IMG/VR virus record: IMGVR_UViG_3300033463_000046 | DNA from: a virus | Taxonomy: Duplodnaviria > Heunggongvirae > Uroviricota > Caudoviricetes | Direction: 5' to 3' (one strand) | Length of the DNA stretch: 64,000 nucleotides | Shown here: positions 2,281 through 49,369 of the stretch, one piece after another | How positions within the stretch are numbered: position 1 is the first letter of the stretch | Layout of the letters: every line of letters begins with the position of its first letter | The notes under the pieces: model-generated | The model's input: the letters and a program-made list of their open reading frames with translations, nothing else | Database searches by the model: none | What the model was told of the DNA's origin: nothing | Translations under genes and position numbers: made by a program

Positions 2281-2370
2281 TGGTTGGGATAGTAGGATTC
2301 GAACCCACACTTACGCCTTCAGAGGGCTACGGATTTAGAGTCCGCTGTGCTACCATTACACCATATCCCA
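2281..2370 (-). tRNA. suppressor tRNA, anticodon CTA (reads UAG); type II, about 20-nt variable arm; CCA encoded
   Basis: Reverse complement folds as acceptor tgggata/tatccca, D-stem gtgt/gcac, anticodon stem gcgga/tccgt with loop ctCTAaa, long variable arm, T-arm gtggg-ttcgaat-cctac, discriminator a, then cca. Confidence 0.8.
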
Positions 2371-8731: not shown

Positions 8732-10036
8732 ATGAAAGACAAGATTAAAGAGTTTAGAGACAAAAATCCTATATTGGATTTTGCAGCAGGCTTTATCCCA
8801 GGTGTGGGAGAAGCACAAGATGCTCATGATTTTGTACATGCTGCTAAAAAGAAAGACTTTGGAGGAATGGCATTAGCTTCTTTAGGTTTTATTATTCCAG
8901 GTGTAACTGGAGGACAATTCTTGAAGATACTTAGACCACTAACAAAAACATAGTGGGGAGCTTGGGCTGCTAAACATTTAGATGAGTTGTCTACTGTTAG
9001 ACCAAGACTTGCTGAAGGTGTTGCAAAAAATGAACCAGAAGCTGTAAAGATACATAAGACATTAGAAAAAATAGCTGATGGCAAAGTATATATTCCAGAA
9101 AAACGTGGCATTGTTAAAGATATTGACCCAGATACTCCTATTTTACCATTTGTAGATTAGAGAGGATATAACCTTACTCCTGAAGCTAGAGTAAATGCAG
9201 CTTTAGATTACGCTATAAGTACTGAAAAAGGGCGTGCTGTTCCTGGAATAATGGGAGGAGCAAAGGGAGTGCAAGGTGTAGAAGAATTAATACCAGGATT
9301 CCCAGCTTTTAAGAAAATAAATAATGTTAAAACTAGAATGGGACAATTCACTGGTGCTGACATTATTACTGCATTGTATTATAGTGGTCATGGTAAGATA
9401 AGATCTAGTAATGCTATATATGATGCTATTATGAAAGCTCCAGTATCTGGAAATGCTAAAGAATACGCCAAAGCTTAGTTAGAAGTTGTAGAAGGAATAC
9501 TATAGAAATACAGTAAAAACACTGATAAAGTTGGAGTGTTTAAAGCTACTAAATTAGCTAAGAAAGGTAGAGATAATGTTTCAGAAACAGAAAGAGCACA
9601 TTCATATGGTCTAATTCCAGATGAATTAGTTAATCCTAAAACTGATCAAGCTGTTAAAGATAGAATACATTTGGAAGAATCTTTAAACAATTTGAGTATA
9701 TGGTTTGGTTCTAAAAATGGTAATGGTGTTGCAGAATTTTATGGTCCTATTCCAATGAATTTATATTCTGGAAGTTATGGAGGAAAGAAATTTGGAGGTA
9801 GTGGTGATCATAAATTATTTGGATTTAATAATTCTATATTAGTAAAGAATTAGGATGATCTTGCAATACATATTGCTAATTCTAAAGATAAAACTATGGG
9901 ATTGGTAACTGATATTTAGGATGGTGCTGGTGTGACAAATGACGTAATATTCTAGCCATATAGGTATAGTTTAATAAGACAAAAGAAAGGTGGTCGGATT
10001 TGCCTAACTACTTCGAAGAAGCGAGGACCGTTTTAA
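8732..10036 (+). CDS. hypothetical protein carrying 8 in-frame TAG codons (amber read-through gene)
   Basis: Track ORFs 8732-8953, 9251-9478 and 9536-9853 are collinear in one frame, separated only by TAG triplets. The frame runs to TAA at 10034-10036 (1302 nt = 434 codons from 8732). The C-terminal 60 codons are less certain. Confidence 0.5.
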
Positions 10037-10110: not shown

Positions 10111-10692
10111 GTGCATTTTAAAACTCTCATTATGCAAATAGTAATTAAAAACAAAAAGTGTTCAATTGACAAAATCAAGAGAGAATATCCTGATTGCGTC
10201 ATTATTGATGTAACGAGTAAAGCTAAGGATGAGTTCAGAAAGCTTAGTCCTTTTTATCCTCATTGCAGTATTCCTGTTAATCCTATTTCTGAACAATTTT
10301 TATTTGGAGCGTCAGTAGAAGGAATTTGGCAAGGTTTGAAAGTATTTGAAGATGAAGGGCCAAGTCTATCTAGTCTTCATAATTCTTCAATGCGTGGATT
10401 AAAGAGAACAACTCGTGTACATGGTCGTTGCTTGGGACATGCTTATGGCGACATAATTGGCAAGAAATATACTTTACTTGGTTACGTAGAAGCTCGTAAG
10501 AAATTGTATGTTCCAGCCTATAAATGGGTGTTAGAGAATAAATGTGCTGATTTAGTTAATAAGATTCGTATCATAGCTCAACATAAGACAGTGATACTTC
10601 TTGATTATAATACTAATGAAGACATTGAAAATGGTAATAAACCGTTATCTCACGCTGCATTAATTAAAAAATATATTAATAAAGAAATTTAA
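10111..10692 (+). CDS. hypothetical protein
   Basis: 193-aa ORF in track. Confidence 0.55.
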   Translation: MHFKTLIMQIVIKNKKCSIDKIKREYPDCVIIDVTSKAKDEFRKLSPFYPHCSIPVNPISEQFLFGASVEGIWQGLKVFEDEGPSLSSLHNSSMRGLKRTTRVHGRCLGHAYGDIIGKKYTLLGYVEARKKLYVPAYKWVLENKCADLVNKIRIIAQHKTVILLDYNTNEDIENGNKPLSHAALIKKYINKEI

Positions 10693-11330
10693 GGTTGAAA
10701 TTCCTTGGACTACTGCCGGCCAATTCTTGTAGTCCTAAAATGCTCCCGTGGTTCACCTGCACGTTGCTTCAGTAATGAGGCGGTGGGAGTGCATGTGTTG
10801 CGAACACTCTATTGAAATATTATAGAGGACTGTGCGACGAACTGACGAACCAAATTTCCCAGCAATGGGCGGCAGGCATCGTGTCGTTAGGATAAACCAG
10901 TAATGGTATAAAGTGGTGAGACCTCTCACTGCACACCCTTTGCCGACTTGTCGGGAGGATGGCTAAAAGAATGCGCATTTATCGAAGTGATACATGGTGT
11001 AAGGACGGGCAGTCCTGATAGTGTTGATCGCTGGGCTCTGACTAAGCTCGGCTTAATCCGTAAGGAGGATAAGAGATAATTGCAAATGTTTCCCGAAGAC
11101 CGCAAATCTGAGAGAGCATTAAGTATGTAGTTTGTAAGCCTATGGGAGTAGCGTCCCACTCAGCCTGCTAAGCTGAGAGAACAGAAATGGTAGGTTTGTA
11201 GAACGGAGATACAGAGAAGTATGTGATTGCAAGCAGAAAATCATGGTGGGGCTGGTCCTGTAGCTGCTCAAAAGGCAGTATGGATACAAGTGCAGCCACC
11301 TCACCTTACAACTAGTCCTTCTTTAAAATA
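10693..11330. ncRNA. candidate structured non-coding region upstream of a tRNA
   Basis: No ORFs and higher GC. Perfect hairpins ggactac..gtagtcc, ctctat..atagag, gtgaga-cc-tctcac, ccgac-tt-gtcgg. Confidence 0.25.
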
Positions 11331-11333
11331 AAG

Positions 11334-11407
11334 AGTCGTTTAGCTCAATTGGTAGGAGCGCAACACTATTAATGTTGAGGCCGTCAGTTCAAGTCTGACA
11401 ACGAATT
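11334..11407 (+). tRNA. tRNA, Asn-like body with anticodon loop ctATTaa (anticodon ATT, atypical)
   Basis: Acceptor agtcgtt/aacgaat (one G-A mismatch), D-arm gctc-aattggta-gagc, anticodon stem caaca/tgttg, T-arm gtcag-ttcaagt-ctgac. Paralogous to tRNAs at 23372 and 30165. Confidence 0.6.
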
Positions 11408-11409
11408 AG

Positions 11410-12210
11410 GATCGCATAAGAAGAAGTAAAAAAAGCAAAAGCGCTGCACACGCTAGATTTAAAATGGTGGTTATCTCCGCTGCCTACCTTTCAAGCTTCG
11501 GCTGTGAGAGGGGAAGATGCGGGTGAGGAGGGGTCGCAAGCCCTGATTCAAGTATTGTGAATAGCAACAGGTATAAGAGGGGGCACCTTCTGTAACTTCC
11601 GGCAGGAGACCTGGGTTTGAAGCAGCTATGAAGTCTAGTGTAGTTTTCGCAAGTTTTTATGAAAGCTTGTCCCCATGACATCTACCAGCAGAAGTGTTGG
11701 TGTGTAAGTACCTCGTAAACAAGGGATATAATGGTGTCACAAAGAGTCATATACTCAGCTCTTTACTTGCCTAGTTAGCTCAGATACTATAAGAGCGTTT
11801 CCTGGATGGAAAAGGTCGGGGGTGTAAATCCTTCACTAGGCACATTGGATTTTTCTTTAAAGCCATTTAGTTCTTCACACTGTGAAGTATGATAGAACGG
11901 AAGGTAGTTTAAGTGACATTGGGATGTGCATATTTTAGTGTCCGAGTTAAAACACGATTTCTTATATAAATCGTATGAGAGGGGCGGATCCTCTCCCTTC
12001 CACAATTCCGAGTTTAAATAAATTGGAGAGTTCGGAACTCCAAAGAGTTTTTGGTAGCCTTGCCGATCGGTGAGGAAGTGTGTTCGCTTGCAAGAAGAAA
12101 CAGTTTCCATACTGGCTTTAGTTATTGTAAGAAAGCGTTCGCGCGTCCCCTCAGTCAGAAATGGCTGAGGGTTTTATTTGGTAATTTATTTACAATAACA
12201 TAAATTTATT
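11410..12210. ncRNA. candidate structured non-coding region
   Basis: About 800 nt without ORFs; track ORFs on the minus strand are short and stop-ridden. GC-rich hairpins. Confidence 0.25.
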
Positions 12211-12214
12211 TAGT

Positions 12215-12766
12215 ATGGAAGAAAAAACAGTAAAATTCAGAGTCCATGCCCAGGGTGAACTTGAATTAGCGGTATCTTGCCCTATAGGCAAATACTATGT
12301 GAACCTGGAAGACCAAATGTTCTATTTTGAACCTAAGTCCGATGAGAAACCTTATGAGTTTATGTCTTCGATTATCTCTATTGTTGTAGCTATGAAGGGT
12401 AGCAAAGTTGCCCAAATGATATTGCATATGCATGCTCATTTTCTTTCTCTCAAGAAGGAGAATGTTACAAAAGTAGACGATGAGAAATATACTTATGACA
12501 TCTCTGTAGAAGGAGAAATGCAGCCTCTTGTCGATTCTGCTTATGGAACGCTGTATGGTAATGCTGAGTACAAGTGCTGCTACTTCGAGTCAGCTCACAA
12601 AGGTTTCATGCAGCCAATAGAGAAAAAGAAATTCGTAAGTGGTTTGAAGAGTGATCTTGCTGGTGATGATGAAGAAAGAAAAGAAGCAGCTGAGACTGTT
12701 TTAGCTGTCATCAAAGAGTTCACAGAACTACATGATGAGGACATTGTTCACGACGAAGCATCGTAA
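12215..12766 (+). CDS. hypothetical protein
   Basis: 183-aa ORF. Confidence 0.55.
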   Translation: MEEKTVKFRVHAQGELELAVSCPIGKYYVNLEDQMFYFEPKSDEKPYEFMSSIISIVVAMKGSKVAQMILHMHAHFLSLKKENVTKVDDEKYTYDISVEGEMQPLVDSAYGTLYGNAEYKCCYFESAHKGFMQPIEKKKFVSGLKSDLAGDDEERKEAAETVLAVIKEFTELHDEDIVHDEAS

Positions 12767-14564: not shown

Positions 14565-14845
14565 CTAACTTTTATGTGGTATAGTGTAAGGGTAGTCTTA
14601 CATTATCTGGATAATGTTAAAATGGGTATAGTTACATGAGATAAGAGTAGTCCAGAATGCTCCTCTGAAGTTATGTACCTTGAAGATGTAGCACGATATG
14701 AGCGTATGCTCATATTGAGAGAGTTCGAGTCTCTCTACCACAACTAGATAATAGAAGTTAAACATTTAAAATAGTTATAATTATGAAGAAGTATTTACGA
14801 AAACGCTTGTTAGGTTACACCGAGATCTAACAGCTCCAATCGTAT

Positions 14846-14936
14846 ATCGGTAAGTGCGTGGAAACAGGCGGATTACATCGGGCTTTTAACCCGAATAGCA
14901 GGGTTCGACTCCCTGTTGGAGCACAAATCAACTCCT
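14846..14936 (+). tRNA. atypically long (91 nt) tRNA-Lys(TTT)-like gene with about 19 extra nt in the D region
   Basis: Perfect acceptor gctccaa/ttggagc; anticodon arm tcggg-ctTTTaa-cccga; T-arm caggg-ttcgact-ccctg. 36 nt lie between acceptor and anticodon stem where 17 are expected. Confidence 0.45.
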
Positions 14937-23371: not shown

Positions 23372-23444
23372 GGGGGGTCTAGCTCAGTTGGTAGAGCGCA
23401 ACACAGTTAATGTTGAAGTCGGAGGTTCGATTCCTCCGACCTCC
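23372..23444 (+). tRNA. tRNA-Asn-like (GTT) with A33 instead of U33
   Basis: Acceptor gggggtc/gacctcc, D gctc-agttggta-gagc, anticodon arm caaca-caGTTaa-tgttg, T-arm ggagg-ttcgatt-cctcc. Confidence 0.65.
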
Positions 23445-23689
23445 GCTATTATTCCAGTCCGAACTCAGAGCGGACTTTAAAATCTACTGAGCGCACAATG
23501 AGCAAGTGGCGGACAGCTTACTTCGTTGAAGACTGGCGGTTCGGTCGGAGGCTCTTCGGAGTATCAGGGAGAGAAGTGGAATACCTCTCCCTTTCGATTG
23601 ATGTAATTTAGTATTTGATAAAGGAAGCCAAAACTATAAGTATTAACAATACGTTTATAAATTCTGAATTAAAGTTAAGGCTTCCATTT

Positions 23690-29837: not shown

Positions 29838-29912
29838 GGGGAGAAAGCTTAAGTGGTATACAGCAGAGGCCTGTTAAGCCTAAGATAGTGGGTTCGAATC
29901 CCTCTCTCCCCG
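29838..29912 (+). tRNA. tRNA-Asn (GTT)
   Basis: Acceptor ggggaga/tctcccc, anticodon arm gaggc-ctGTTaa-gcct, T-arm gtggg-ttcgaat-ccctc, 3-bp D-stem. Confidence 0.7.
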
Positions 29913-34560: not shown

Positions 34561-35007
34561 ATGAATCCTTGGTCATCTAATTACAAATCGCATCAAGGGA
34601 ATGTAGGATTAGGTAGAGCTATAGCATACTATACAGCTCAATGTGTACCTGTCTTACTCCCACTAAATGATACTTAGAAGTATGATTTAGCAGTCGATAA
34701 AGATGGTAAGTTACAAAGAGTATCTGTAAAGACAACTCAAGGAAAGAATAAAACAGGAACTTATTATACTGTTCAATTAAAGAATAGTGGAGGAGCCTCT
34801 GGAAAGTCTGTTATAAGACATTTCGATAATAGTTCTTGTGATATTTTATTCATTGTAACTGTAGAAGGAACTATGTATGAAATACCTTCCTCTTTAATAA
34901 ATGTTAGTGCTCAACTAACTTTAACTGAAGATTGGGATGATTATATAGTCACATTAGATTGGGGTACGAGTGCTCCTGAGGAAACTCAGGAAGTAGAAGC
35001 AGGCTAA
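34561..35007 (+). CDS. PD-(D/E)XK-type nuclease-like protein with one in-frame TAG (recoded)
   Basis: MNPWSSNYKSHQGNVGLGRAIAYYTAQCVPVLLPLNDT-TAG-KYDLAVDKDGKLQRVSVKTTQGK... The frame reads through TAG at 34675-34677 to TAA at 35005. The G-x-G...YDL...VxVK pattern is typical of Hjc/Mrr-like nucleases. Confidence 0.5.
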
Positions 35008-35377
35008 TTCGGTGAAGGTTATAGCCCTATAAATATAAATAACGCCGAGCTAAATTAAGAGAACTATCGAGATTGGTAGGGATAGTACTGAAGTAGGGTA
35101 CCGATAAGCATGGGTCACAAAACCCTGAATATGTCGCAATCTATCCTATAGTTCTCTTATAAATGTGTACAGACTATACACCTGCAACCTAAACACTTTA
35201 TGTGCATGGTTAAGACATAGTCGGTCTGTTCGTAAGAACAGAGGAAAACAGCCGACCGCTAACACCGGTCCGTCGGTTCGAATCCGGCCTCCTCCGCTAT
35301 CCGAGGTTGAGGTACATACTCGATTTGTACTGTAATTGGAGGTGGTTCCTTAATAGTTTAAGGGTGTAGGATTGATT

Positions 35378-35495
35378 GGTGATATAAGACGGTATGTTGG
35401 TTAACCGAACCCTGTAGGAGGGCATAGTAGGATGTAAGCACCGTTACTTACTTAATAATACTACTATTACGAAGGTTCAATTCCTTCTATCACCA
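35378..35495 (+). tRNA. atypical 118-nt tRNA-like locus (perfect acceptor halves ggtgata/tatcacc, canonical T-arm)
   Basis: T-arm gaagg-ttcaatt-ccttc. The intervening about 85 nt contains hairpin gtaag-caccgtta-cttac but no standard D or anticodon arms. Confidence 0.3.
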
Positions 35496-35500
35496 CCTTC

Positions 35501-35588
35501 GGAGAGTTGGGTGAGTGGTTTAAACCACCGACCTGCTAAGTCGGTGTCCGCTAACAACGGGCCACTAGTTCGAATCTAGTACTCTCCG
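35501..35588 (+). tRNA. tRNA-Ser (GCT), type II
   Basis: Acceptor ggagagt/actctcc, D ggtg-agtggtttaaa-ccac, anticodon arm ccgac-ctGCTaa-gtcgg, variable hairpin ccg-ctaacaa-cgg, T-arm actag-ttcgaat-ctagt. Confidence 0.8.
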
Positions 35589-35605
35589 CAATAAATTTTT
35601 AATCT

Positions 35606-35776
35606 ATGGTACTAACAACTTATTTAGTAGGAGTTATTGTTGCCCTTTACCTTATAGGAAAACTCTTATATGAAAGAGATGAAAGTGAAGGTGGTGTAGT
35701 ATGTTATACATTTGCCATTTTCTCATGGGTGACAGTATTAATATTAGTGATTGCCAAAAAGTTTGATAGATTATGA
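35606..35776 (+). CDS. small membrane protein (56 aa)
   Basis: MVLTTYLVGVIVALYLIGKLLYERDESEGGVVCYTFAIFSWVTVLILVIAKKFDRL. Confidence 0.3.
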   Translation: MVLTTYLVGVIVALYLIGKLLYERDESEGGVVCYTFAIFSWVTVLILVIAKKFDRL

Positions 35777-35865
35777 GCTGGCAGGAAATAATCTTCTATT
35801 GTGCTATAATAGCTGGACAAATAGCTATTATTTGGATATTATTTAACGAAAGAAATTTTTAAAAT

Positions 35866-38943: not shown

Positions 38944-39015
38944 GATCGTATAGCTCAATGATAGAGCAGCGGTCCTCAAAACCGAAGGTTTAGGGTTTGA
39001 ATCCCTATACGATCA
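38944..39015 (+). tRNA. tRNA with anticodon loop ccTCAaa (anticodon UCA, reads UGA/UGG); candidate opal suppressor or Trp-UCA
   Basis: Acceptor gatcgta/tacgatc, D gctc-aatgata-gagc, anticodon stem cggt/accg (4 bp), T-arm taggg-tttgaat-cccta. Position 33 is C. Confidence 0.6.
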
Positions 39016-39094
39016 CTCCCCACTGTGAAGTGGCATCTCCTTTCATTAAAAACAAATGTCACTAAATTTCTCGGGACTCAGAGGAGTCCCACTT

Positions 39095-48787: not shown

Positions 48788-49369
48788 GGTCTTCCTATTA
48801 AATGGGGCTGACAGGATTAGACGGATAATGAAGGTAATAAGAACATGCAAAGGCTGTATGGAAAGACATACAAATCAATTAAATGGCAAGAACAATGTTT
48901 CTTTCGCCATCACAAGCTACAGAGTAGCTGCGTGAGGCGTGGGGTCGTGATTAACCCTATCATCCAATAATCACAAAGTCTACGATTCTCAGTGTCTCCG
49001 ACTATAAACACAGCAACTGAGTGGTGGCAGGTGCGACTTCGGTCAATCCCCCAGTCATTGCCTAAGACTTTAAAAAAGGCACTGGTGAAGAAAACACTCC
49101 AAATTGAAAAGCATGTACAATTCTTATAGAATAGTTGTTGCGGACGGCGGTTCGATTCCGCCCAGTTCCACTCCTGTGATCTGACGGAGCATGCGGTCAC
49201 TAAAAGGCATGCGTCAATTCTCACTTAGACTCAAGAAGTGATAGGTTGTACAACTGAAGGGAATGAATTTTTTGCAGGTAAGGAAACCGCCATCTCAAGT
49301 TTTCTAATCTATAAATCATAAAACTAGAGAAAAGGGTAAGTAGGTGTACGGGACACCTACGTAAATATA

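What the first reader, a model, noticed from the sequence alone, without database searches (positions are those of the whole stretch)
10693..12210. 1.5-kb non-coding island around tRNA 11334-11407 with dense perfect hairpins
No credible ORF on either strand, and GC is enriched. Repeated perfect stems include ggactac/gtagtcc, ctctat/atagag, gtgaga/tctcac and ccgac/gtcgg. A tRNA sits in the middle, which is the typical arrangement of phage ornate ncRNAs or co-transcribed, processed RNA precursors.
Basis: seen in the sequence. Interest (0 to 1): 0.55.

Follow-up and report, generated by a model that had tools for sequence, protein, structure and literature searches.

The report
Divergent GOLLD RNA carrying a tRNA
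The 1.5-kb gene-free island is a divergent copy of GOLLD, a giant phage RNA whose known members self-assemble into hollow RNA cages, here carrying a tRNA in its internal linker and followed by a tRNA look-alike and a hairpin-rich tail: a known kind of RNA in a new lineage of large gut phages.

Summary
Window 10693-12210 has no plausible ORF, also if TAG, TGA or TAA is read as sense; it is GC-enriched, and a tRNA lies at 11334-11407. Rfam's GOLLD model (RF02032) matches 11244-11761 over its full length (54 bits, E=8e-13, below the curated 150 bits), with the tRNA in the variable linker, as in phiCbK and other published GOLLDs.

Four relatives from metagenomes (79-91% identical) also score sub-threshold where their 3' domain is complete (45-54 bits). 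They support the structure by covariation: the independent Rfam 3'-domain structure is 82% paired with 11 doubly changed pairs (1-4 when partners are slid); a 92-pair 5'-domain structure has 31 (2 when slid).

The conserved unit is about 10693-11765. Downstream lie a conserved tRNA-like cloverleaf with a 4-6-nt "anticodon" loop (11770-11843), a present/absent hairpin cassette (11845-12000), a highly conserved 180-nt module and an intrinsic terminator (12148-12180).

Verdict: new, divergent member of a known family; function unknown, as for all GOLLDs. Interest moderate (0.36).

The parts
10693..10890 (+). 5'-most, fast-evolving subdomain of the GOLLD 5' domain. It starts directly after the upstream stop codon (GGTTGAAATTCC). 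The first stem GGACTAC/GTAGTCC (10707-10735) is conserved while its loop varies.
   Evidence: The start and first stem are conserved in the window, L155 and L158 although the upstream genes differ. Loop lengths are 15, 42 and 44 nt. The next roughly 150 nt are remodelled in L158, and a 16-nt GNRA hairpin present in the window is absent from L155.
10891..11243 (+). Conserved core of the GOLLD 5' domain: 17 predicted helices closed by 10891-10893/11240-11242. It includes a small hairpin (stem 11222-11224/11233-11235) with the invariant loop GAUUGCAA just before the 3' domain.
   Evidence: RNAalifold on 5 sequences gives 92 pairs, 96.4% of cells paired, and 31 pairs changed on both sides against 11.6 +/- 2.4 in shuffles (0/500) and 2 when partners are slid. 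Known GOLLDs have an equivalent GAGUAGC-hairpin-GCGAAAG motif at this position.
11244..11306 (+). First hairpin of the GOLLD 3' domain (P13/P14 in the published numbering) with the family-typical loop CUCAAAAGG.
   Evidence: Rfam RF02032 alignment, model positions 1-62. The loop is invariant in all 5 clade members, and one inner pair changes AU to GC.
11307..11450 (+). Variable linker (J13/15) holding the embedded tRNA, ending in the conserved A-rich motif AAAGCAAAAG (11432-11441).
   Evidence: In the Rfam alignment the tRNA is an insertion in the unpaired linker. The motif is invariant in the clade. Published structures place this linker inside the cage (PMC12286853, PMC12990946).
11334..11407 (+). 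Embedded tRNA, Asn type, with the unusual anticodon AUU (A34) and a G2.A71 mismatch in the acceptor stem.
   Evidence: Rfam tRNA 56.7 bits; ARAGORN. A tRNA is at this position in all relatives, with anticodon ATT (L156, L158), GTT (L157) or TTT (L155). The 2:71 mismatch is kept in all five. The anticodon arm is close to the window's tRNA-Asn(GTT) at 23373.
11451..11761 (+). Body of the GOLLD 3' domain: long-range helix 11451-11460/11631-11640 enclosing hairpins with CGCAA-type loops, then the 3'-terminal multi-helix part ending in ...CUCAGCUC.
   Evidence: The window has 94 of the 95 model pairs, and 80 of those are standard pairs. Across the clade 82.1% of cells are paired (40-45% when slid), and 11 pairs change on both sides (1-4 when slid; 1/500 shuffles reach 11).
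11469..11523 (+). Clade-specific extension of one 3'-domain hairpin (internal loop, 6-bp helix, UUCG tetraloop), invariant in all five relatives.
   Evidence: The window has 36 nt where the Rfam model has 13. Every column is invariant although the RNA as a whole is about 80% identical. Fold.
11770..11843 (+). tRNA-like cloverleaf that cannot decode: the 'anticodon' loop is 5 nt here (4-6 nt in relatives), the D-loop lacks GG, and the T-loop is GUGUAAAUC. It starts 9 nt after the GOLLD 3' end.
   Evidence: Not called by ARAGORN or Rfam tRNA in the window. In 5 sequences 100% of cells are paired and 9 of 20 pairs change on both sides, against 0-1 when slid. It is also found in tRNA arrays without GOLLD (L001, L159, L161) and is absent from L157.
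11845..12000 (+). Accessory hairpin cassette (four local hairpins) that is present or absent and changes position among relatives.
   Evidence: Absent from L155, L156 and L151. In L157 part of it follows the GOLLD directly and another part lies after an inserted 198-aa gene. It contains perfect stems at 11873-11887, 11954-11974 and 11977-11995. MFE z = -2.0.
12001..12147 (+). Highly conserved 3' module of local hairpins; role unknown.
   Evidence: About 95% identical to L155 and L156 by counting differences in alignment A3, whereas BLAST gives 79% for the segment 12001-12900 as a whole and about 80% for the GOLLD. Fold (z = -1.5). No Rfam family.
12148..12180 (+). Intrinsic terminator (10-bp GC-rich stem followed by a U tract) that probably ends the non-coding transcription unit.
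   Evidence: Terminator scan. The stem is kept in L155 and L156 despite substitutions.

Best explanation
The island is a non-coding transcription unit on the + strand of a large (196.7-kb contig) TAG-recoding phage, probably from the gut. Its core, about 10693-11765 (roughly 1.07 kb), is a divergent GOLLD RNA: a structured 5' domain of about 550 nt, then the family's conserved 3' domain, with a tRNA of the Asn/Lys anticodon family (NUU) inserted in the single-stranded linker between the first 3'-domain hairpin and the long-range helix.

Inferred by homology with solved GOLLDs (10- to 14-mer RNA-only cages with this linker facing the lumen): this RNA is expected to self-assemble into a homo-oligomeric shell that holds its own tRNA inside. 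The conserved 2:71 mismatch may keep that tRNA from being excised.

Also inferred: the tRNA-like cloverleaf 9 nt downstream would give RNase P a cleavage site that releases the GOLLD 3' end, as ordinary tRNAs could do about 10 nt after the GOLLD in PegLeg and L130. The remaining 340 nt are accessory hairpin modules ending in an intrinsic terminator.

Shown here: homology, secondary structure, modularity and the absence of coding potential. Inferred: transcription as one unit, processing, cage assembly and any role of the tRNA. The biological function is unknown, as for the whole family.
For: Family match:
- Rfam GOLLD matches the full model length at 54 bits, E=8e-13 in the region and 2.7e-11 in the whole window.
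- 94 of the 95 model pairs are present and 80 of those are standard pairs.
- Family motifs are present: UCAAAAG loop, AAAGCAAAAG, CGCAA loop, UGACA..UAC and the CUCAGC end.
- The motif upstream of the Rfam model is also shared with known GOLLDs.

Relatives and covariation:
- Relatives give the same sub-threshold hit: L155 53.8 bits, L157 44.8, L151 (cut at the contig end) 34.2.
- Covariation supports the independent Rfam structure and the 5'-domain structure.
- A model built only from this clade ranks the known GOLLD of L130 first, ending at the exact Rfam end coordinate (E about 0.02).

Architecture:
- A tRNA lies in the linker of phiCbK, Mesorhizobium phage Cp1R7A-A1 and Erythrobacter phage vB_EliS-L02.
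- A tRNA starts 10-11 nt after the GOLLD in PegLeg and L130.
- The island sits in a tRNA and tmRNA island.
- It has no ORF under any stop-codon recoding and ends in a terminator.

Cage assembly and the inward-facing linker come from PMC12286853 and PMC12990946.
Against: - The score is far below Rfam's gathering threshold (54 against 150 bits).
- Four Rfam helices pair poorly in the clade: 45-65% of cells in helices 7, 9, 13 and 14. Helix 13 is present by eye in a shifted register.
- The reciprocal model found only 1 of 7 known GOLLDs, and weakly.
- The 5' part shows no MFE excess over shuffles (z = -0.56).
- The covariation rests on only five sequences that are 79-91% identical, and the 5' structure was predicted from the same alignment on which it was scored.
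- No promoter was found, and there are no expression, processing or assembly data.
- The tRNA-like element occurs without GOLLD elsewhere and is missing from L157, so it is not an obligatory GOLLD part.
Confidence: 0.88

Rival explanations
1. The island is not one large RNA. It is a decayed stretch of the tRNA array: one live tRNA, one degenerate tRNA and leftover spacer hairpins. On this reading the GOLLD match is a composition-driven false positive.
For: The score is sub-threshold. A degenerate-looking tRNA-like element lies next to it. The 5' part has no MFE excess. The window contains many other gene-free stretches of 0.5-1.2 kb that hold tRNAs.
Against: The E-value is 8e-13 over the full model, and the hit recurs in relatives. 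A 10-bp long-range helix spanning 180 nt is kept. Pairs changed on both sides number 31 and 11, far above the slid controls. A 55-nt block is invariant. The 'degenerate' tRNA-like element is itself conserved with covariation.
Confidence: 0.03
2. The region encodes protein after all, hidden by the phage's alternative genetic code or by frameshifts.
For: The phage reads TAG as sense in the gene at 8732-10036, which has seven in-frame TAG codons and ends in TAA. It also carries tRNAs with anticodons CTA and TCA.
Against: No + strand frame within the island exceeds 72 aa under TAG, TGA or TAA recoding. Substitutions among relatives are compensatory in stems and indels fall in loops, which is not a codon-like pattern. 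The ENA and Logan gene callers called nothing there.
Confidence: 0.02
3. It is a true GOLLD homologue but works mainly as a scaffold for maturing or releasing tRNA. On this reading the embedded tRNA and the tRNA-like element are excised, and the flanking RNA is only a precursor by-product and not a cage.
For: All five relatives keep a tRNA in the linker. tRNAs or tRNA-like elements directly flank GOLLDs. The anticodon changes among relatives as if the tRNA itself were under selection. Phage tRNAs are known to evolve anticodon loops to escape host nucleases (PMC10264068).
Against: About 1 kb of flanking RNA is conserved with covariation, far more than a precursor needs. Solved GOLLDs are stable cages (PMC12286853). 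No expression of the embedded pseudo-tRNA could be detected in a Mycobacterium GOLLD (PMC6582537). The embedded tRNAs carry a conserved acceptor-stem defect.
Confidence: 0.07

Closest known systems
GOLLD RNA (Rfam RF02032); solved examples are env-38 (14-mer, PDB 9MEE) and Streptococcus agalactiae GOLLD (12-mer)
   Same: Order of 3'-domain helices, the long-range helix, the signature loops and motifs, a variable structured 5' domain, a linker that can hold a tRNA, and a phage tRNA-array context (PMC12286853, PMC12990946).
   Different: Scores 54 bits against a 150-bit threshold. Four model helices are weak or shifted. One hairpin is extended by an invariant 23 nt. The 5' domain is about 550 nt, against 420 nt in env-38. 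Total length is about 1.07 kb including the tRNA. The host phage lineage is gut-associated, TAG-recoding and probably infects Bacteroidota, whereas the GOLLD phages examined here infect Caulobacter, Mesorhizobium, Ruegeria, Erythrobacter, Vibrio and Mycobacterium, with further solved or described examples from marine metagenomes and Lactobacillales (PMC12286853, PMC12990946, PMC6582537).
GOLLDs with an embedded tRNA: Caulobacter phage phiCbK (tRNA-Gly), Mesorhizobium phage Cp1R7A-A1 (tRNA-Leu), Erythrobacter phage vB_EliS-L02 (tRNA-Glu), Mycobacterium tRNA-array GOLLDs (pseudo-tRNA or tRNA-Phe)
   Same: The tRNA sits right after the first 3'-domain hairpin, inside the linker (PMC6582537, PMC12990946).
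   Different: Here the tRNA has an NUU anticodon that switches among A, G and U at position 34 in close relatives, and a conserved 2:71 mismatch. There is no sequence similarity to those phages.
ROOL RNA (the other phage-associated cage-forming ornate RNA)
   Same: A large structured phage RNA found near tRNA arrays, with an internal variable linker (PMC12286853).
   Different: No ROOL match in Rfam at E up to 1 in the region or up to 0.01 in the window. Sequence and fold are unrelated.
tRNA-like processing or mimic elements (for example the tRNA-like 3' module of MALAT1/mascRNA, or the tRNA-like domain of bacterial YrlA Y RNAs). This comparison comes from my own knowledge and was not tested.
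   Same: For the element at 11770-11843: a cloverleaf with acceptor, D and T arms but no usable anticodon loop, placed directly at the 3' end of a large ncRNA.
   Different: No Rfam YrlA or tRNA hit in the window. The element also occurs free-standing in tRNA arrays of related phages. Cleavage by RNase P is untested.

Membership tests
GOLLD RNA (RF02032) | Significant full-length match to the family covariance model | tested here: met
   54 bits, model positions 1-416 of 416, E=8e-13 (region) and 2.7e-11 (window). Relatives score 53.8, 44.8 and 34.2 bits, the last one cut at the contig end.
GOLLD RNA (RF02032) | Reaches Rfam's curated gathering score (150 bits) | tested here: not met
   54 bits in the window and no more than 54 bits in any clade member. 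A canonical GOLLD (L130) scores 204.9. This is an operational cut-off, not a biological feature, but it marks the clade as divergent.
GOLLD RNA (RF02032) | Conserved 3'-domain architecture: first hairpin with UCAAAAG loop, long-range helix enclosing the CGCAA-loop hairpins, and the 3'-terminal multi-helix region | tested here: met
   94 of the 95 model pairs are present and 80 of those are standard pairs. The clade is 82% paired against 40-45% when slid, with 11 doubly changed pairs. The long-range helix is 94% paired; helices 10-12 are 100% paired.
GOLLD RNA (RF02032) | All model helices conserved (helices 7, 9, 13 and 14 in the numbering) | tested here: inconclusive
   45-65% of cells are paired in the clade under the projected register. 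Helix 13 exists by eye in a shifted register. The others could be altered, or misaligned by MAFFT.
GOLLD RNA (RF02032) | Large, structured, lineage-variable 5' domain upstream of the 3' domain | tested here: met
   551 nt; 92 predicted pairs, 31 doubly changed. The 5'-most 200 nt are remodelled between relatives. The junction motif is shared with known GOLLDs.
GOLLD RNA (RF02032) | Variable single-stranded linker (J13/15) after the first 3'-domain hairpin, sometimes carrying a tRNA | tested here: met
   The tRNA at 11334-11407 lies inside the linker. The position is the same in phiCbK, Cp1R7A-A1 and vB_EliS-L02.
GOLLD RNA (RF02032) | Phage or prophage location within or beside tRNA arrays | tested here: met
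   35 tRNA calls and a tmRNA in the window. The 196.7-kb contig has phage-like neighbours.
GOLLD RNA (RF02032) | Self-assembly into a homo-oligomeric RNA cage | not testable with these tools
   Known only from cryo-EM and mass photometry of env-38 and S. agalactiae GOLLD (PMC12286853, PMC12990946).
GOLLD RNA (RF02032) | Conservation of the nucleotides that make the inter-subunit bridges (L20 kissing loop, L21a/L21b loops, A-minor adenosines) | tested here: inconclusive
   The CGCAA-type loop and a GC dinucleotide in the L21a-equivalent loop are present. The env-38 text copy lost 17 nt, so residue numbers could not be mapped reliably.
tRNA (RF00005), embedded gene 11334-11407 | Cloverleaf above the curated score, with a 7-nt anticodon loop | tested here: met
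   56.7 bits against a threshold of 29; loop CUAUUAA, anticodon AUU.
tRNA (RF00005), embedded gene 11334-11407 | Fully paired 7-bp acceptor stem | tested here: not met
   G2.A71 in the window; the 2:71 mismatch is kept in all 5 relatives. 23 of 27 free-standing tRNAs in the window have 7 of 7 pairs.
tRNA (RF00005), element 11770-11843 | Detected by tRNA models; 7-nt anticodon loop; G18G19 and the T-loop consensus | tested here: not met
   No Rfam tRNA hit at E up to 1 and no ARAGORN call in the window. The loop is 4-6 nt, the D-loop is AGAUAnUAUAA and the T-loop is UGUAAAU. It is therefore tRNA-like and not a tRNA.
ROOL RNA | Match to the Rfam ROOL model | tested here: not met
   No hit at E up to 1 in the region or up to 0.01 in the window.

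The most novel reading that the evidence does not exclude
This clade could be a distinct GOLLD subtype in which the cage is built around a deliberately non-excisable tRNA. The conserved 2:71 acceptor defect would keep the NUU tRNA tethered inside the shell. The switching of anticodon position 34 (A, G or U) among phages that are about 80% identical would reflect an arms race with host anticodon nucleases that target tRNA-Asn or tRNA-Lys. On this reading the GOLLD would be a protective or decoy container for a tRNA, which would give the family a testable function. The anticodon-less tRNA-like element would serve as a dedicated RNase P handle that trims the cage RNA.
Probability: 0.12. Interest if true: 0.75.

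Novelty: new member of a known kind. Interest (0 to 1): 0.36.

Why it matters
GOLLD is one of only two natural RNA families known to build closed RNA-only cages, and its function is still unknown. This locus extends the family to a lineage that the curated Rfam threshold misses: large, TAG-recoding phages whose nearest relatives come from human faeces.

It also supplies a small comparative series of five loci in which the cage RNA is conserved while the tRNA in its lumen-facing linker changes anticodon and keeps an acceptor-stem defect. That contrast is what one would want for testing the 'tRNA storage or protection' hypotheses raised by the structural papers.

In practical terms, sub-threshold GOLLD hits next to phage tRNAs deserve to be taken seriously, and the family model could be broadened to include them.

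Tried and rejected
- blastn (distant mode) of the island against 50,697 GenBank phages found no match.
- The upstream DUF6939 gene has relatives in IMG/VR (L001-L006), but none has a GOLLD next to it. The downstream ORF had no IMG/VR relative by pattern search.
- Motif-pattern scans for GOLLD found almost only chance matches. A two-motif pattern gave 120 loci, mostly chance. Stricter three-motif patterns found one real GOLLD, L130, plus coding-sequence hits. The single metagenome scan returned 11 chance hits. GOLLD sequence motifs are too variable for exact patterns.
- The genome-contig scan with the invariant block found nothing.
- MFE z-scores were uninformative for the 5' domain.
- My first shuffle script hung and was rewritten.
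- Mapping the published inter-subunit contacts failed. The terms are absent from the supplements, the PDF copy of env-38 lost 17 nt, and the Stockholm file is truncated.
- I considered a kissing interaction between the invariant GAUUGCAA loop and the CGCAA loop, but I could not tie it to the published nomenclature, so I make no claim.
- An H-type pseudoknot at 12006-12043 was considered and rejected on steric grounds, because there is no loop between the two 3' arms.
- L151 has an inverted segment and looks like an assembly chimera, so it was left out of the alignments.
- Pfam gave nothing for the 198-aa gene inserted in L157.
Full report
**What is in the sequence.** Window 10693-12210 lies between two + strand genes: a DUF6939 protein (10111-10692) and a 183-aa protein of unknown function (12215-12766). 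No table-11 ORF in it exceeds 107 aa, and the longest ones are on the minus strand.

The ENA gene caller had annotated a 434-aa gene just upstream (8732-10036) that contains seven in-frame TAG codons and ends in TAA. I therefore re-scanned the island with each stop codon in turn read as sense. No + strand frame within the island exceeds 72 aa.

GC is 0.42-0.48 in the island against 0.30-0.37 in the flanks. The tRNA is at 11334-11407.

Perfect stems of at least 6 bp are enriched in the island (13 against 5.35 +/- 2.3 in dinucleotide shuffles). The excess lies in 11762-12210 (8 against 1.7), not in the 5' part that holds the cited stems (3 against 1.5) or in the central part (1 against 1.9). MFE z-scores agree: -0.56 for 10693-11243, -3.39 for 11762-12180 and -1.71 for a coding control.

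**Identity.** At Rfam's gathering thresholds only tRNAs and a tmRNA are reported in the window. With E-value reporting, the GOLLD model RF02032 matches 11244-11761 over its whole length (positions 1-416). The score is 54 bits, with E=8e-13 for the region and 2.7e-11 for the whole window. This is below the curated cut-off of 150 bits.

The tRNA is aligned as an insertion in the model's unpaired linker. Projecting the model's structure onto the window gives 94 of its 95 pairs, of which 80 are standard pairs. This includes all ten pairs of the long-range helix 11451-11460/11631-11640.

The family's sequence signatures are there: the CUCAAAAGG loop, AAAGCAAAAG at the end of the linker, a UCGCAAG loop, UGACA..UAC...GUG, and a 3' end ...CUCAGCUC. 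Similarity extends about 30 nt upstream of the Rfam model. Known GOLLDs have GAGUAGC, a small hairpin, then GCGAAAG there; the window has GAAGUA, then UGU[GAUUGCAA]GCA, then GAAAAUCA.

**What is known about the family.** GOLLD RNAs are large RNAs of phages and prophages, often more than 800 nt long, and are typically found near tRNA arrays. They have a conserved 3' domain and a variable 5' domain. Cryo-EM shows RNA-only cages: a 14-mer for env-38, and 10- to 12-mers for the S. agalactiae RNA. The variable linker (J13/15) is disordered and faces the interior. Some members carry a tRNA in that linker, and an 'inhibited storage' role has been suggested for it. The function of the family is unknown (PMC12286853, PMC12990946). 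A Mycobacterium GOLLD lies in a 32-tRNA cluster and contains a pseudo-tRNA whose expression could not be detected (PMC6582537).

I fetched published GOLLD loci and confirmed both arrangements seen here.
- A tRNA lies in the linker of phiCbK (Gly), Mesorhizobium phage Cp1R7A-A1 (Leu) and Erythrobacter phage vB_EliS-L02 (Glu).
- A tRNA starts 10-11 nt after the GOLLD 3' end in PegLeg (Gln) and in the IMG/VR contig L130, a canonical GOLLD scoring 204.9 bits.

**Relatives.** The window is identical to part of ENA contig ERZ27257207:k141_8582193 (196.7 kb) and to two Logan contigs.

Homologues of the downstream ORF led to contigs that carry homologues of the island: L155 (about 80% identical), L156 (about 91%, truncated at its 5' end), L157 (about 81%) and the partly inverted L151. 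An exact-match scan with an invariant block added L158 from IMG/VR (79%, cut at its 3' end).

Rfam gives the same sub-threshold GOLLD hit in L155 (53.8 bits), L157 (44.8) and L151 (34.2, cut). This is therefore a coherent divergent clade and not a single decayed copy.

**Covariation.** The Rfam structure is independent of these sequences. On the five-sequence alignment of the 3' domain it is 82.1% paired, against 40-45% when partners are slid by 1-3 columns. Eleven pairs change on both sides, against 1-4 when slid and 5.1 +/- 1.7 in shuffles (1 of 500 shuffles reaches 11).

Helices 7, 9, 13 and 14 of that projection pair poorly (45-65%), which explains much of the low score. By eye, helix 13 exists in each sequence in a shifted register.

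For the 5' domain there is no published model, so I used RNAalifold. It predicts 92 pairs in 17 helices over 10891-11243. These are 96.4% paired, with 31 pairs changed on both sides, against 11.6 +/- 2.4 in shuffles (0 of 500) and 2 when slid. That structure was derived from the same alignment, which favours it, but the margin is large.

The 5'-most 200 nt evolve faster. The start (GGGTTGAAATTCC, immediately after the stop codon of unrelated upstream genes) and the first stem are kept, while its loop is 15, 42 or 44 nt. A GNRA hairpin is present only in the window, and L158 has a different substructure there.

A model built only from the clade's last 120 nt ranks the GOLLD of L130 first among 90 kb, ending at the exact Rfam end coordinate. 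The hit is weak (19.5 bits, E about 0.02), and the model misses the six GC-rich GenBank GOLLDs.

**Clade-specific features.**
- One 3'-domain hairpin carries 36 nt where the model has 13. The block 11469-11523 is invariant in all five sequences although the RNA overall is about 80% identical.
- The linker tRNA is always present but is not the same. The anticodon is ATT in the window, L156 and L158, GTT in L157 and TTT in L155.
- Two acceptor and T-arm lineages differ with compensation, yet all five keep a non-standard 2:71 pair with A71 invariant. In contrast, 23 of 27 free-standing tRNAs in the window have seven standard acceptor pairs.

Phage tRNAs are known to vary their anticodon loops to escape host tRNA-targeting defences (PMC10264068). 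Applying that to this tRNA is an inference.

**The tail.** The conserved unit ends at about 11765 (...CUCAGCUCUUUA). What follows is modular.

- **tRNA-like element, 11770-11843.** It forms a cloverleaf that neither ARAGORN nor Rfam calls in the window. Five copies (window, L155, L001, L159, L161) are 100% paired, with 9 of 20 pairs changed on both sides against 0-1 when slid. The 'anticodon' loop is only 4-6 nt, the D-loop lacks GG and the T-loop is UGUAAAU, so it cannot decode. It also occurs in tRNA arrays that have no GOLLD and is missing from L157. It is therefore an independent element of this phage group. Here it could supply an RNase P site 9 nt past the GOLLD end.
- **Hairpin cassette, 11845-12000.** It is absent from L155, L156 and L151 and is rearranged in L157 around an inserted 198-aa gene.
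- **Conserved module, 12001-12147.** It is about 95% identical to L155 and L156 by counting differences in alignment A3. That is more conserved than the GOLLD (about 80%) or the BLAST segment 12001-12900 that includes the downstream ORF (79%).
- **Terminator, 12148-12180.** An intrinsic terminator ends the region.

None of the tail matches an Rfam family.

**Context.** The window holds 35 ARAGORN calls, a tmRNA and suppressor-type tRNAs. The closest phage relatives of its helicase are uncultured phages from human faeces (57% and 43% identity), followed by a crAss-like phage and Flavobacterium phages. This suggests a large gut phage of Bacteroidota.

**Conclusion.** The island is a GOLLD RNA with an embedded tRNA, plus accessory modules. 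Homology, secondary structure and modularity are shown. Transcription as one unit, RNase P processing, cage assembly and any role for the tRNA are inferred from the family and remain untested.

The element is a new, divergent member of a known family. Its main value is comparative, because it provides a series of related loci for testing what the tRNA in the linker is for.

Noticed in passing
window 8732-10036 (+); tRNAs at 2281-2370 (-) and 38944-39016 (+): The ENA gene caller annotated a 434-aa gene with seven in-frame TAG codons that ends in TAA. The window also encodes a tRNA with anticodon CTA (labelled 'Pyl' by ARAGORN) and one with TCA (labelled 'SeC'). This points to TAG-to-sense recoding in at least some genes of this phage. 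Relative L158 also carries a CTA tRNA.
   Followed up: partly
window 34929-35242 (+): Full-length match to the Rfam group I intron model just below threshold (46 bits against 50, E=1.5e-8). It lies in a gene-free stretch (35008-35862) that also holds tRNA-Ser. The interrupted gene was not identified.
   Followed up: no
window 48804-49173 (+): A phage-encoded tmRNA (73 bits; tag peptide GKNNVSFAITSYRVAA) lies within the tRNA island. L130 (with its canonical GOLLD) and the phiCbK, DSS3P8 and PegLeg loci also have a tmRNA close to their GOLLD.
   Followed up: no
window 23373-23446 (+): The free-standing tRNA-Asn(GTT) shares its anticodon stem with the embedded tRNA but appears to have A instead of the near-universal U at position 33 (loop CAGTTAA). 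This is another anticodon-loop oddity in the same phage.
   Followed up: no
window 29838-29912 (+); 14833-14924 (+): Rfam calls a tRNA at 29838-29912 (54.7 bits) that ARAGORN misses. ARAGORN calls a 92-nt 'tRNA-Ala(ggc)' at 14833-14924 that Rfam does not report.
   Followed up: no
window 10111-10692 (+): The gene directly upstream of the GOLLD is a DUF6939 protein with a weak, sub-threshold resemblance to the DarT1-associated NADAR antitoxin family (E=3.5e-4). Its relatives in other large phages are not next to a GOLLD.
   Followed up: partly
L159 5429-5547 (-): A sub-threshold Y RNA-like (YrlA) hit (39 bits against 69, E=2e-5) lies in a related 176-kb phage contig that also carries the anticodon-less tRNA-like element.
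   Followed up: no
L157 1005-1601 (+): A 198-aa ORF with no Pfam match is inserted between pieces of the hairpin cassette, right after the GOLLD in this relative. It may be a mobile gene, by analogy with the HNH endonucleases seen next to mycobacterial GOLLDs.
   Followed up: partly
L001 2805-2893 (+): The clade-specific 3'-terminal GOLLD model gives a weak hit (16.3 bits, E about 0.1) in a gene-free gap of the related phage contig L001, which otherwise shows no GOLLD. This is probably chance.
   Followed up: no
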